DNA from: an uncultured Candidatus Saccharibacteria bacterium
GTDB lineage: Bacteria > Patescibacteriota > Minisyncoccia > Minisyncoccales > 2-12-FULL-40-12
DNA: 44,077 nt
NCBI GenBank assembly: GCA_964372865.1
Contig: CAYJRW010000001.1
Location: forward strand, 1 to 44,077
Reading direction: 5' to 3'
Position numbers and translations under genes: made by a program. Under the pieces are notes generated by a model. That model worked only from the letters and a program-made list of their open reading frames with translations, ran no database searches and was not told the origin of the DNA. Below are positions 42,122 through 44,077 of this stretch, piece by piece (positions within the stretch are counted from its first letter, which is position 1; each line of letters opens with the position of its first letter).

Positions 42122-42589
42122 TTACCAAGCAAAATGGGCAAAGGCTCTGTTGGCCTCTGCCATTCTCTGGGTGTCTTGTTTTTTCTTGACTGCCCAGCCC
42201 TGATTGCTTGCCGCATCCATCAGCTCTTGAGCCAACCTTTCTCTCATTGGTTTGCCCTTTCTTCCCCTTGCTCCCTGCAGTATCCAGCGCATAGCCAGAG
42301 TAATTTTTCTGTCTCCCCTCACCTCTCTTGGCACCTGATAAGTGGCTCCGCCGATTCTTTTTGATTTTACTTCAACAAAGGGGCCTGCGTTTTGCAACGC
42401 CTGTTCAAAAACCTCCAACGGCTCTTTTTTGGTTTTTTCCTTGATAATGTCAAAGGCCTTGTAGACAATCTTTCTGGCAATTGTTTTTTTACCTTTTCTC
42501 ATCACCTGATTGATAAATTTGGCAACAATAGTTTTGTCGTAAACCGGATCTGGCTGAATTATTCGTTTTTCTACCTTTCTTCGTGCCAT
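42122..42589 (-). CDS. rpsG: 30S ribosomal protein S7
   Basis: 155 aa: [22 protein letters not shown]...GGATYQVP. Confidence 0.96.
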
Positions 42590-42591
42590 AA

Positions 42592-43011
42592 TTATTTCTC
42601 GCGTTTAGTTCCGTATTTACTCCGTTCCTGTTTCCTTCCTTCAACGCCTCCTGTATCCAGCACGCCTCTAACCACATGGTATCTGACTCCGGGCAAATCC
42701 TTCACCCTTCCGCCCCTGATTAAAACAACAGAGTGTTCCTGCAAAGTGTGGCCTTCGCCAGGAATATAAGCTGTTACCTCCATGCCGTTGGTTAAACGAA
42801 CCCTGGCAACTTTTCTTAAAGCGGAATTGGGCTTTTTTGGAGTAACAGTAAAAACTTTAATACACACTCCTCTCTTGAAAGGCGAATAATATTCCTTGGG
42901 TCTGTTTTTCAAAACATTAAAACCAAAAGTCAAAGCCGGCGTCTTGTGGCGCTTTTTAATTCTCTTCCTTCCTTTTTTGATTAGTTGATGTATTGTCGGA
43001 CACATGCTCAA
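42592..43011 (-). CDS. rpsL: 30S ribosomal protein S12
   Basis: 139 aa with [11 protein letters not shown] and [20 protein letters not shown]. The start may be the second Met (43005). Confidence 0.95.
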
Positions 43012-43064
43012 AAATAATTAAGCGCTGAGCGCTCAATGTAATTTAGCAAATAATTCATATAAAG

Positions 43065-44045
43065 TCAAACGTTCAGCATAATTCTTATTAATTTTAACGA
43101 GTTTCCGTGTTTCAGCAAGCCGAAATAAGAACTAAAAGTTTCTTGTCTTGGCGATTTACGTAATCTCTTTAACATCCTTCTCTTTGTGGTTGTCCTTAAA
43201 ACCCTGTGGTCAGGGAAATTAACCCAGCCCAGAAAATCAATGCCTGAAGCCAAGGTTTTAATGAAGATTTTGTCTGGATGAAGCTCCAATTTTAAATTCT
43301 CGGCTAAAAAACTCCTTATGGGAACAATCAGGTTTTTCAGCCAGCTTTTATTACCAGATAAAATAACAAAGCCGTCAGCATACCTAATATAGTATTTCGC
43401 TTTAAGTTTGTGTTTAACAAACTGGTCAAGCTCATTCATATAGATATTGACAAATAATTGTGAGGTGAGATTGACGAGGGACAAACCGGTGTTGGGTTTT
43501 GACGAAAAGCTTCTTATAACATTTTCAAGAAGCGAGATAATGTTTTTGTCTGGAATATACTTTTTCAAGATTCCAATTAAAATATCGTGGTTAATGTTCT
43601 CAAAGAATTTTTTGATGTCGCATTTTAAAACCCACCCTGTTTTTGTGTTATTTTTACTGACTTGGTAAGTAAACTGGCGAAGGCGGTTTATGGATTTGTG
43701 CGTTCCTTTATTAAGACGGCAGGAAAAAGAATCAGAAATAAAAACCCTGTCAAAGAAAGGGTATAGAATTCTATAAATGGCGTGGTGGAGCAGCCTGTCT
43801 CTGACCTCTGCCTTGTGAATTCTTCTCGGCTTTGGGTCGTTTATTTTAAACGCCTTGTATCCTCCGTGCTGGTAAGTATGGTTGGCAAGCCCTTGGTTCA
43901 GAGATATAATATTATCCATAAGGCGCAAAGAGAATTCCTGCACGTCTTTTTTGCCTCTTTTGCCTCTGACAAATTCTTTCCACGCCTCCAAAAGGTTTTC
44001 AACCGATATAATATCTTCAAAAGTATGACTCAACTGAATTTTCAT
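43065..44045 (-). CDS. Reverse transcriptase, DGR-clade-like, with non-canonical YADG and VNLTSQ motifs
   Basis: 326 aa with RIHKAEVRDRLLHHAIY (motifs 1/2), VLKCDIKKFFENINHD (motif A Asp), GLSLVNLTSQLFVNIYMNELD (DGR-type xxxSQ motif, 43458-43487) and IRYADGFVIL (motif C, 43371-43382). Confidence 0.8.
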   Translation of the reverse strand: MKIQLSHTFEDIISVENLLEAWKEFVRGKRGKKDVQEFSLRLMDNIISLNQGLANHTYQHGGYKAFKINDPKPRRIHKAEVRDRLLHHAIYRILYPFFDRVFISDSFSCRLNKGTHKSINRLRQFTYQVSKNNTKTGWVLKCDIKKFFENINHDILIGILKKYIPDKNIISLLENVIRSFSSKPNTGLSLVNLTSQLFVNIYMNELDQFVKHKLKAKYYIRYADGFVILSGNKSWLKNLIVPIRSFLAENLKLELHPDKIFIKTLASGIDFLGWVNFPDHRVLRTTTKRRMLKRLRKSPRQETFSSYFGLLKHGNSLKLIRIMLNV

Positions 44046-44064
44046 AACAATTTTTCAGCTAATA

Positions 44065-44075
44065 ACCCCCCCCCC
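44065..44075. repeat. C11 homopolymer (G11 on the coding strand) 20-30 nt upstream of the RT start, at the window edge
   Basis: Read directly from the sequence: ataaccccccccccc ga at the last bases of the window. Confidence 0.6.
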
Positions 44076-44077
44076 GA

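What the first reader, a model, noticed from the sequence alone, without database searches (positions are those of the whole stretch)
43065..44045. DGR-type reverse transcriptase with substituted catalytic and signature residues, immediately upstream of rpsL
The protein aligns by eye to the diversity-generating-retroelement RT clade. The matching features are the N-terminal ...NLLEAWKEFVRGKRGK, HTYQHGGYKAF, motif A CDIKKFF and the clade-specific NLTSQ.F.N.Y...LD motif. Two near-invariant positions differ. The Gly of the [I/L]GxxxSQ motif is Val (LVNLTSQ). Motif C reads YADG instead of YxDD: codons GAC GGC at 43376-43371, one transition away from GAC GAC. No template repeat, variable repeat, Avd or target gene is visible. 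Only 53 nt separate the RT from rpsL, so any TR/VR must lie beyond base 44077. Three explanations are possible: the RT is part of a DGR cut by the window edge, it is decaying, or it has been repurposed with altered chemistry.
Basis: partly seen in the sequence, partly recalled or inferred. Interest (0 to 1): 0.7.

Follow-up and report, generated by a model that had tools for sequence, protein, structure and literature searches.

The report
DGR reverse transcriptase, mutated active site
This gene is the reverse transcriptase of a diversity-generating retroelement whose other parts lie just past the contig end, and in this strain three otherwise invariant active-site residues are changed, so the protein-diversifying machine is probably slowed or switched off.

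Summary
Window 43065-44045 (-) encodes a 326-aa RT with LVNLTSQ and YADG. Its best solved relative is the Bordetella phage DGR RT (E 3e-39).

A sibling contig (L001) is base-identical over the shared 1.1 kb and continues past the window end. It carries the rest of the element: an Avd gene on the opposite strand, a 118-nt TR, and a VR at the 3' end of a small target gene. The VR differs from the TR at 9 positions, all TR adenines. So this is a real DGR cut by the contig edge.

Among 199 relatives (68-81% identical, Patescibacteria), S189, V191 and G225 occur only in this protein. They align with bRT P180, G182 (contacts the template base) and catalytic D216. The rest of the protein is not decaying. 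I judge the RT impaired or dead (about 0.6) rather than altered but active (about 0.3).

The position next to rpsL is incidental.

A side finding may matter more. Across this DGR clade a poly-G or dinucleotide repeat sits between avd and RT, at window 44066-44075. The avd start codon appears to be the antisense of RT codon His7 (CAT in 65/65). The repeat therefore lies inside the avd reading frame and could act as an on/off switch.

The parts
43065..44045 (-). DGR reverse transcriptase gene, 326 aa, complete.
   Evidence: ORF. Pfam RVT_1 E 6e-20. bRT 8ub7 E 3e-39. 68-81% identity to hundreds of Patescibacteria DGR RTs.
43617..43619 (-). Motif A catalytic Asp (D143 in LKCDIKKFF). Intact.
   Evidence: Invariant column. 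Aligns with the 'sdfskff' stretch of bRT. The bRT paper names D138 there as catalytic.
43473..43481 (-). Codons S189-L190-V191 at the start of the DGR signature [I/V/L]GxxxSQ. S189 replaces an invariant Pro and V191 replaces an invariant Gly.
   Evidence: 198 of 198 relatives have P and G. These align with bRT P180-I181-G182. I181 and G182 contact the template base. I181 modulates adenine mutagenesis.
43371..43373 (-). Codon GGC = G225, replacing the second Asp of motif C (YADD becomes YADG).
   Evidence: 198 of 198 relatives have D. It aligns with bRT D216, which is named catalytic. The sequence is identical in three assemblies.
44066..44075 (-). Poly-G tract, 10 G here. It is a simple-sequence repeat conserved at this site across the clade. 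The contig ends 2 nt beyond it.
   Evidence: L001 has 9 G and L002 has 10. Relatives have G7-14, or (GA)n, (GT)n or (CT)n, at the same site.
44025..44077 (+). 5' end of the avd gene, cut by the contig end. The inferred ATG at 44025-44027 is the antisense of RT codon His7. The reading frame then crosses the repeat tract.
   Evidence: In L001 this ATG is in frame with a 134-aa Avd (Pfam bAvd 58.8 bits, NCBIfam DivGenRetAVD E 3e-21). The His7 codon is CAT in 65/65 relatives, against 59% CAT at other His codons. The start site itself is inferred.
43882..43910 (+). Promoter-like site TTGGCA-17-TATAAT inside the RT gene, antisense, pointing towards avd.
   Evidence: 11 of 12 consensus matches. Similar sites cluster at the same two RT positions in relatives: 64 hits in 79 loci. 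They overlap conserved codons, so function is inferred, not shown.
43017..43037 (-). Terminator-like hairpin followed by a T-run, between the RT and rpsL.
43040..43068 (-). Promoter-like site TTGACT-17-TAAATT with an upstream TG. It overlaps the RT stop codon and is a candidate rpsL operon promoter.
   Evidence: This is a consensus match only.
42592..43011 (-). rpsL (ribosomal protein S12). It is a neighbour and not part of the element.
   Evidence: PF00164. Relatives do not share this adjacency.

Best explanation
The ORF is the reverse transcriptase of a complete chromosomal diversity-generating retroelement of the Patescibacteria (CPR) clade. The contig breaks at a poly-G tract 20 nt upstream of the RT start.

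**Layout, read from sibling contig L001**
- Target gene with a C-terminal VR.
- A hairpin, then about 360 nt of non-coding DNA.
- The TR.
- avd on the opposite strand.
- The poly-G tract.
- The RT.

**Normal mechanism.** This is inferred from the Bordetella phage model. RT plus Avd copy TR RNA into cDNA, with misincorporation opposite adenines. The cDNA then replaces the VR.

**What is different in this strain.** Three single-base changes have altered otherwise invariant active-site residues: P189S, G191V and D225G. These correspond to bRT P180, the template-contacting G182 and the catalytic D216. Most likely they cripple polymerisation. Diversification would then have stopped, or nearly stopped, only recently, and the VR would be frozen in its present form.

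**Shown and inferred.** Shown: clade membership, the missing parts, the uniqueness of the substitutions and the adenine-specific TR/VR pattern. Inferred: loss of activity.
For: **It is a DGR RT**
- bRT is the best solved relative.
- L001 is 100% identical to the window over 1133 nt plus the 5' leader, apart from tract length.
- L001 carries a 118-nt TR (769-886) and VR (285-402) with 9 mismatches, all at TR adenines, and no other mismatch.
- TR codons at the variable sites are mostly AAC (read).
- An Avd ORF is present.
- A hairpin with a 4-nt loop lies 17 nt after the VR.
- The same layout, with adenine-specific TR/VR pairs, occurs in 53 relatives.

**The active site is hit**
- S189, V191 and G225 are each unique among 199 relatives. 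This is the only sequence with 3 or more deviations in the 51 columns that are at least 99% conserved.
- The equivalent bRT residues are G182, which contacts the template base, and D216, one of the three catalytic aspartates.
- A scan of 241 million metagenome contigs found no relative carrying YYIRYADGF. YADG is therefore not a conserved alternative motif.

**Possible redundancy.** Some relatives carry two such DGRs per genome: L009 with L020, L034 with L041, and L015 with L019. A second copy could relax selection on this one.
Against: - The ORF is intact, and its lineage shows no general acceleration: 22 derived residues against 26 in its sister. A crude calculation says neutral decay long enough to hit 3 of 51 invariant columns should have added about 16 further changes. 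Plain decay therefore fits poorly.
- In the bRT structure the modelled Mg2+ is held by D138 and D215, not D216. From my own knowledge, some polymerases tolerate loss of the second motif C Asp. Residual activity is therefore possible.
- The VR has no non-adenine mismatch to the TR, so homing was recent.
- No biochemical or read-level data were available.
Confidence: 0.6

Rival explanations
1. The RT is still active but its properties have changed. It would be a slower polymerase, or one less mutagenic at adenines, because the loop around the I181-equivalent residue has been reshaped (S189-L190-V191) and the metal site altered. The DGR would then run in a low-mutagenesis mode.
For: - The changes are concentrated in the active site while the rest of the protein stays conserved. 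That pattern suggests selection rather than drift.
- In bRT, I181N lowers adenine misincorporation from 52% to 24%. G182 contacts the template base.
- In L001 only 9 of 26 TR adenines (35%) differ in the VR. This is the lowest of 50 relatives, whose median is 59%.
- There are no non-adenine TR/VR mismatches.
- The Mg2+ seen in bRT is bound by D138 and D215.
Against: - D216 is counted as a catalytic residue in bRT. From my own knowledge, the second Asp of YxDD is required in HIV-1 RT and telomerase.
- The variant is seen in one lineage only.
- A 35% figure from a single VR could be chance or selection on the protein.
Confidence: 0.3
2. The substitutions are sequencing or assembly errors, and the real gene encodes canonical LGNLTSQ and YADD.
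For: The contig end next to a homopolymer shows that assembly was difficult nearby.
Against: - Three separate single-base substitutions, not indels, lie more than 550 nt from the homopolymer.
- The 981-nt sequence is identical in the NCBI contig and in two Logan assemblies from different runs.
Confidence: 0.03
3. The RT has been repurposed for a job outside the DGR, for example a defence-type RT or a non-catalytic nucleic-acid-binding role.
For: Weak. Active-site loss with an otherwise conserved protein is the pattern expected of a catalytically dead but still useful protein. PADLOC RT models match at low E-values, as they do for any RT.
Against: - avd, TR, VR and the hairpin are all intact and adjacent.
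- The variant is not a family.
- All defence-RT NCBIfam scores are far below their cut-offs.
Confidence: 0.04
4. It is not a DGR RT but a group II intron, retron or UG-type RT.
For: The NCBIfam group II RT/maturase model scores 130.7 bits. Some sources name relatives 'group II intron RT' or 'retron-type RT'.
Against: - 130.7 bits is far below that model's 300-bit cut-off.
- bRT scores about twice the bits of any group II RT.
- The motif ends in SQ, not SP.
- There is no maturase or endonuclease domain in 326 aa.
- Rfam finds no intron RNA in L001.
- Avd plus an adenine-specific TR/VR pair are adjacent.
Confidence: 0.01

Closest known systems
Bordetella phage BPP-1 DGR (bRT, Avd, TR, mtd VR)
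   Same: - RT of the same clade (E 3e-39, aligned over residues 9-295).
- Avd accessory protein.
- TR/VR pair that differs only at TR adenines, with AAC codons.
- Hairpin with a 4-nt loop just downstream of the VR. That the phage has such an element is from my own knowledge.
   Different: - Gene order. In the phage, avd, TR and brt are co-directional. Here avd is on the opposite strand, head-to-head with the RT, and appears to overlap its first 7 codons.
- A repeat tract lies between the two genes.
- The element is chromosomal and sits in a Patescibacteria-like genome.
- The target is a protein of about 209 aa with no Pfam or NCBIfam match.
- The RT has S/V/G where bRT has P180/G182/D216.
Patescibacteria (CPR) DGR clade. 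Paul et al. 2017 is cited from memory because the paper is not held in the library. PMC11661182 reports that CPR DGR RTs cluster together.
   Same: - 68-81% identity to hundreds of RTs from Parcubacteria-group MAGs.
- Identical layout VR-TR-avd(-)-repeat-RT(+) in 53 of the loci with enough flank.
   Different: - It is the only member of 199 with S189, V191 and G225.
- It has the lowest share of changed TR adenines.
- It lies upstream of rpsL, which relatives do not.
Group II intron reverse transcriptase/maturase
   Same: Shared RT0-RT7 motif organisation. It is the second-best structural relative.
   Different: - Scores are half those of bRT.
- No X/maturase or endonuclease domain.
- No intron RNA.
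- The motif is LVxxxSQ, not QGxxxSP (the two motifs are compared).
Simple-sequence-repeat contingency loci, for example poly-G tracts in Neisseria, Campylobacter and Haemophilus genes (one search lists such papers). This comparison applies to the repeat tract only.
   Same: A G/C homopolymer of 7-14 units, or a dinucleotide repeat, lies near the 5' end of an ORF. Its length sets the reading frame. Length differs between the window (10) and L001 (9), and between L074 (10) and L076 (9), with identical flanks.
   Different: Switching has not been demonstrated. Consensus length was constant in three species sampled 6-7 times each. The gene controlled would be a DGR accessory gene. I found no report of this.

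Membership tests
Diversity-generating retroelement (DGR) | RT of the DGR clade, closer to known DGR RTs than to group II, retron or UG RTs. | tested here: met
   bRT (8ub7) scores E 3e-39 and 138 bits. The best group II RT scores 75 bits. All defence-RT and group II NCBIfam scores are far below their cut-offs. No formal tree was built.
Diversity-generating retroelement (DGR) | Signature motif [I/V/L]GxxxSQ in the palm. | tested here: not met
   The motif reads LVNLTSQ. L and SQ are kept but the Gly is Val. 198 of 198 relatives have LGNLTSQ-type motifs.
Diversity-generating retroelement (DGR) | Catalytic YxDD (motif C) together with the motif A Asp. | tested here: not met
   The motif A Asp (D143) is present. 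Motif C is YADG. 198 of 198 relatives have DD.
Diversity-generating retroelement (DGR) | A TR/VR pair whose mismatches fall at TR adenines. | tested here: met
   None is present in the window. It is present on L001, which overlaps the window exactly: 118 nt, 9 mismatches, all at adenines, 26 A in the TR.
Diversity-generating retroelement (DGR) | Accessory variability determinant (Avd). | tested here: met
   Pfam bAvd scores 58.8 bits (cut-off 40). NCBIfam DivGenRetAVD scores 75.5 bits, E 3e-21, just under its cut-off of 80. The gene is on L001. Only its first 17 codons fall in the window.
Diversity-generating retroelement (DGR) | VR at the C-terminus of a target protein with a C-type-lectin or other variation-tolerant fold. 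| tested here: inconclusive
   The VR covers the last 39 codons of the target gene. An AlphaFold model of a 76%-identical relative has pLDDT 86. Foldseek against the PDB gives no match at E <= 0.001. The only hits are weak C-type-lectin-like ones at TM about 0.4.
Diversity-generating retroelement (DGR) | Ongoing mutagenic homing, seen as VR heterogeneity within a population. | not testable with these tools
   No reads were available. Searches for other VR variants found nothing.
Group II intron RT/maturase | Score above the family cut-off, an X/maturase domain and a surrounding intron RNA. | tested here: not met
   TIGR04416 scores 130.7 bits against a cut-off of 300. The protein ends at 326 aa. 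Rfam finds no intron in L001.
SSR-mediated phase-variable gene (for avd) | A hypermutable repeat within the ORF or promoter, whose length varies between closely related cells and sets expression. | tested here: inconclusive
   **For:** the tract is conserved at one site in about 72 loci, and G/C runs of 8 or more are otherwise rare. The frame is open from the antisense ATG to the tract in 57/58 loci. The His7 codon is CAT in 65/65. 24 of 72 loci have no usable start as assembled. Two near-identical pairs differ by one G.

**Against:** no length variation among 6, 7 and 6 contigs of three species. 38 of 72 loci also have a canonical start after the tract.

The most novel reading that the evidence does not exclude
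In the whole Patescibacteria DGR clade, mutagenesis is gated by a hypermutable repeat. The avd gene starts at an ATG that is the antisense of RT codon 7 and reads through a poly-G/C or dinucleotide tract. Gain or loss of one repeat unit, or polymerase slippage on the tract, would then turn Avd on or off, and with it the whole diversity generator. The window strain shows both states: 10 G in the window puts avd out of frame, and 9 G in L001 puts it in frame. On top of this, the strain has hard-wired a slowdown or shut-off through three active-site changes in the RT.
Probability: 0.35. Interest if true: 0.7.

Novelty: new member of a known kind. Interest (0 to 1): 0.45.

Why it matters
**The RT itself.** It is an ordinary member of a known and very abundant DGR clade. 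Its one unusual trait is a natural triple substitution in the active site, including the second catalytic Asp and the Gly of the DGR signature motif. This gives a ready-made natural allele for asking which residues set activity and adenine infidelity. It is also an example of how a host may lock a diversified gene.

**The side finding.** How DGR activity is switched on and off in cells is an open question. A conserved repeat tract inside the avd leader lies head-to-head with the RT start and is seen in dozens of species. It offers a concrete, testable switch for a large group of uncultured bacteria.

Tried and rejected
- **TR/VR inside the window.** A repeat search over all 44 kb found nothing of TR/VR type.
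- **VR variants, to test for ongoing diversification.** A protein search with the target fragment found nothing above 77% identity. A scan of JGI metagenome contigs with a TR/VR pattern that left the adenines free found 0 matches.
- **Recurrence of YADG.** A degenerate DNA pattern for YYIRYADGF in metagenome contigs gave 3 matches, none of them an RT.
- **The window genome in GTDB representatives.** It is absent. The best locus is 75% identical.
- **Conserved link with rpsL.** Rejected. Only 1 of 80 relatives has rpsL within 6 kb. The closest relative is followed by a different gene, whose product I did not run against any family library.
- **General decay of the RT.** Rejected. The number of derived changes equals that of the sister lineage.
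- **Length variation of the repeat among contigs encoding the same RT.** None in three species. The P0045 set cannot be used, because its called ORF includes the tract.
- **Either/or model for avd starts.** There is no association between having a start after the tract and having an in-frame start before it (Fisher p 0.8).
- **Open-frame control limited to the RT leader.** It is much weaker than the full-stretch test: 33/34 against 25/34 and 9/34.
- **Fold of the target protein.** No significant PDB match.
- **Rfam on L001.** One sub-threshold snoRNA match, which I dismiss.
- **Paul et al. 2017.** The paper could not be read because it is not held.

Full report
**1. The observation**

The minus strand of window 43065-44045 holds an intact 326-aa ORF with an ATG start. 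The codons GAC GGC sit at 43376-43371, so motif C reads YADG. The DGR signature reads LVNLTSQ, with V191 encoded by GTC at 43475-43473.

The distance to the rpsL ORF is 53 nt to the listed TTG. It is 59 nt to the more plausible ATG at 43005. A repeat search over the whole window finds no TR/VR-like pair.

**2. What kind of RT it is**

- Pfam sees only the general RVT_1 domain.
- Against solved structures the best match by far is bRT, the RT of the Bordetella phage DGR: 8ub7, E 3e-39, 138 bits, aligned over residues 9-295. Group II intron RTs follow at about 75 bits.
- NCBIfam's group II model scores 130.7 bits against a cut-off of 300. All defence-RT models are far below their cut-offs.
- A protein search returns thousands of relatives. 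The best 120 are 68-81% identical and come from Parcubacteria-group (Patescibacteria/CPR) metagenome bins.
- A published survey notes that CPR DGR RTs form one cluster (PMC11661182).

**3. The missing parts**

A look-up of the exact protein found two further contigs. L001 (Logan assembly of ERR4904391, 2423 nt) matches the window without a mismatch over 1133 nt. It also matches the 32-nt leader, except that its poly-G run has 9 G and the window has 10. L001 continues 1290 nt beyond the window end and contains:

- **Target gene.** The 3' end of a gene (L001 1-408), whose last 39 codons form the VR (285-402).
- **TR.** A 118-nt TR at 769-886. TR and VR differ at 9 positions, all at TR adenines (26 A in the TR), and at no other position. 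Read in frame, the variable TR codons are mostly AAC.
- **Hairpin.** A hairpin with a 4-nt loop lies 17 nt after the VR (z = -3.0).
- **avd.** On the opposite strand, 20 nt after the TR, lies a 134-aa ORF. It matches Pfam bAvd (58.8 bits, cut-off 40) and NCBIfam DivGenRetAVD (E 3e-21, 75.5 bits, just under the cut-off of 80).

The window therefore holds one end of a complete DGR, cut by the contig edge.

The target belongs to a family of proteins of about 209 aa with no Pfam or NCBIfam match. Their C-terminal positions vary exactly where the VR lies. A confident model of a relative (pLDDT 86) has no significant PDB neighbour. There are only weak C-type-lectin-like hits.

**4. Relatives**

A scan of GTDB species representatives gave 80 loci.

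- In nearly all of them avd is divergent from the RT, with 20-60 nt between the Avd homology and the RT start.
- In 53 loci with enough flank the order is VR, 350-500 nt, TR, avd(-), RT(+), with adenine-specific mismatches.
- rpsL lies near the RT in only one of the 80, about 5.5 kb away.
- The closest relative, P0002 (79-81% identical across; Hainich groundwater, L096), has a different target and a different downstream gene.

The position next to rpsL is therefore incidental. Between the RT and rpsL there are a terminator-like hairpin and a promoter-like site. These would separate the two transcription units, but they are consensus matches only.

**5. The substitutions**

In an alignment of 199 non-identical relatives, position 189 is P, 191 is G and 225 is D in all 198 others. 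This protein is the only one with three or more deviations in the 51 columns that are at least 99% conserved.

By the alignment to bRT the three residues correspond to P180, G182 and D216. The bRT cryo-EM study names D138, D215 and D216 as the active-site residues and places a putative Mg2+ at D138 and D215. It reports that I181 and G182 contact the template base (bioRxiv 10.1101/2023.10.23.563531). I181, the first residue of the signature [I/V/L]GxxxSQ, promotes adenine misincorporation: I181N lowers it from 52% to 24% (PMC7826257).

The RT nucleotide sequence is identical in three assemblies, so the changes are not errors. A degenerate DNA pattern for YYIRYADGF found no relative among 241 million metagenome contigs. 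YADG is therefore a private allele and not a family trait.

**6. Dead, slowed or changed?**

The lineage is not decaying in general. Polarised against the other sequences, it has 22 derived residues against 26 in its sister, and the same mean identity to the rest. As a rough estimate, neutral drift long enough to hit 3 of 51 invariant columns should have added about 16 other changes. That estimate is crude. It works at the amino-acid level and assumes equal rates. The hits are concentrated in the active site (16 of the 51 columns lie in residues 186-226, p about 0.03).

This pattern fits either selection for shutting the enzyme down or a change in its properties. Two facts keep the second option open.

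- The metal seen in bRT is bound by the other two aspartates.
- The VR of L001 differs from its TR at only 35% of the adenines. This is the lowest of 50 relatives, whose median is 59%, and it could reflect a less mutagenic enzyme. It could equally be chance.

From general knowledge of RTs (HIV-1 RT, telomerase; not tested here), loss of the second motif C aspartate is usually severe. I therefore rate 'impaired or dead, recently' at about 0.6 and 'active but altered' at about 0.3.

Some relatives have two such DGRs in one genome, so a second copy acting in trans is possible. This could not be checked.

**7. A conserved repeat and an antisense start (side finding, partly inside the window)**

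The window ends 2 nt beyond a run of 10 G at 44066-44075. At the same place, between avd and the RT, about 72 relatives have G7-14 (mode 10). A few have (GA)n, (GT)n or (CT)n instead, and three have no repeat. Runs of 8 or more G or C are otherwise rare: 67 in 749 kb, by my estimate mostly at this one site.

Evidence that the avd reading frame crosses the tract:

- Half of the loci have no ATG, GTG or TTG between the tract and Avd residue 6. The window strain has TTA there.
- On the avd strand there is an ATG that is the antisense of RT codon His7 (window + strand 44025-44027).
- That His codon is CAT in 65 of 65 relatives, while other His codons in the same genes are CAT in 59% (Fisher p = 5e-15).
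- The stretch from this ATG to the tract is open in its frame in 57 of 58 loci, against 9 and 7 for the other frames. A control restricted to the RT leader is weaker: 33, 25 and 9 of 34.
- The three loci without a repeat are all in frame.
- Promoter-like hexamers lie antisense inside the RT gene at two fixed positions. In the window this is TTGGCA-17-TATAAT at 43882-43910, 11 of 12 matches. They overlap conserved codons.

With a repeat present, only 11 of 58 loci are in frame as assembled (p = 0.012 against one third). 24 of 72 have no usable start at all. In L001 (9 G) Avd is in frame. With the window's 10 G it would stop after about 31 codons (inferred by joining the window to L001).

Against a fast switch, consensus tract length was the same in 6, 7 and 6 contigs of three species. 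Only two near-identical pairs differ by one G: window against L001, and L074 against L076. Several contigs, including the window, break at the tract.

I found no paper linking DGRs with such tracts, but the library is incomplete. The most economical reading is that the tract lies in the avd leader and limits or switches Avd production, through DNA slippage or transcriptional slippage. This is an inference and needs read-level and reporter data.

**8. Verdict**

The finding is real and the DGR interpretation is right. The RT is a new member of a known and abundant clade. It carries a private and probably disabling, or at least attenuating, active-site allele. Interest in the RT alone is modest. 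The conserved repeat and the head-to-head avd/RT overlap raise it somewhat.

Noticed in passing
window 44066-44075 (- strand); L003-L082 at the avd/RT junction: A poly-G tract (G7-14, mode 10) is conserved between avd and the RT in about 72 relatives. In a few it is replaced by (GA)n, (GT)n or (CT)n. The window has 10 G and the identical contig L001 has 9. Several contigs, including the window, break there.
   Followed up: partly
window 44025-44045 (both strands): avd and the RT appear to overlap head-to-head by 21 nt. The avd ATG is the antisense of RT codon His7, and the RT ATG is the antisense of avd codon His7. The RT His7 codon is CAT in 65/65 relatives, against 59% CAT at other His codons.
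   Followed up: partly
window 43882-43910 (+ strand): A near-consensus promoter-like site (TTGGCA-17-TATAAT) lies inside the RT gene in antisense, pointing at avd. Similar sites cluster at RT positions +135 and +163 in relatives, but they overlap conserved amino-acid motifs.
   Followed up: partly
L002, compared with window 42319-42353 and 42760-42874: A second assembly has the identical 981-nt RT gene. It carries two clusters of differences in rpsG and rpsL (21 synonymous differences within 115 nt of rpsL) and a different avd 5' end, with TTG where L001 has TTA. This points to recombination between co-existing strains, or to a mosaic contig.
   Followed up: partly
L001 285-402 and 769-886: The VR differs from the TR at only 9 of 26 adenines (35%). 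This is the lowest share among 50 relatives, whose median is 59%.
   Followed up: partly
window 43017-43068 (- strand): A promoter-like site overlaps the RT stop codon. A terminator-like hairpin with a T-run follows it, directly before rpsL. This may be the boundary between the DGR and the ribosomal-protein operon.
   Followed up: no
window 42592-43011 (- strand): The rpsL product has about 13 extra residues ([18 protein letters not shown]) between the conserved PAL and KRGVC segments, compared with E. coli S12 as I remember it. The likely start is the ATG at 43005, not the listed TTG.
   Followed up: no
L009/L020, L034/L041 (same contigs); L015/L019 (same genome): Some relatives carry two DGRs of this type in one genome, so RT copies may be redundant.
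   Followed up: no
L101-L110: In one species a serine recombinase (resolvase-type) gene lies directly downstream of the RT. This hints that the cassette is mobile in some lineages.
   Followed up: no
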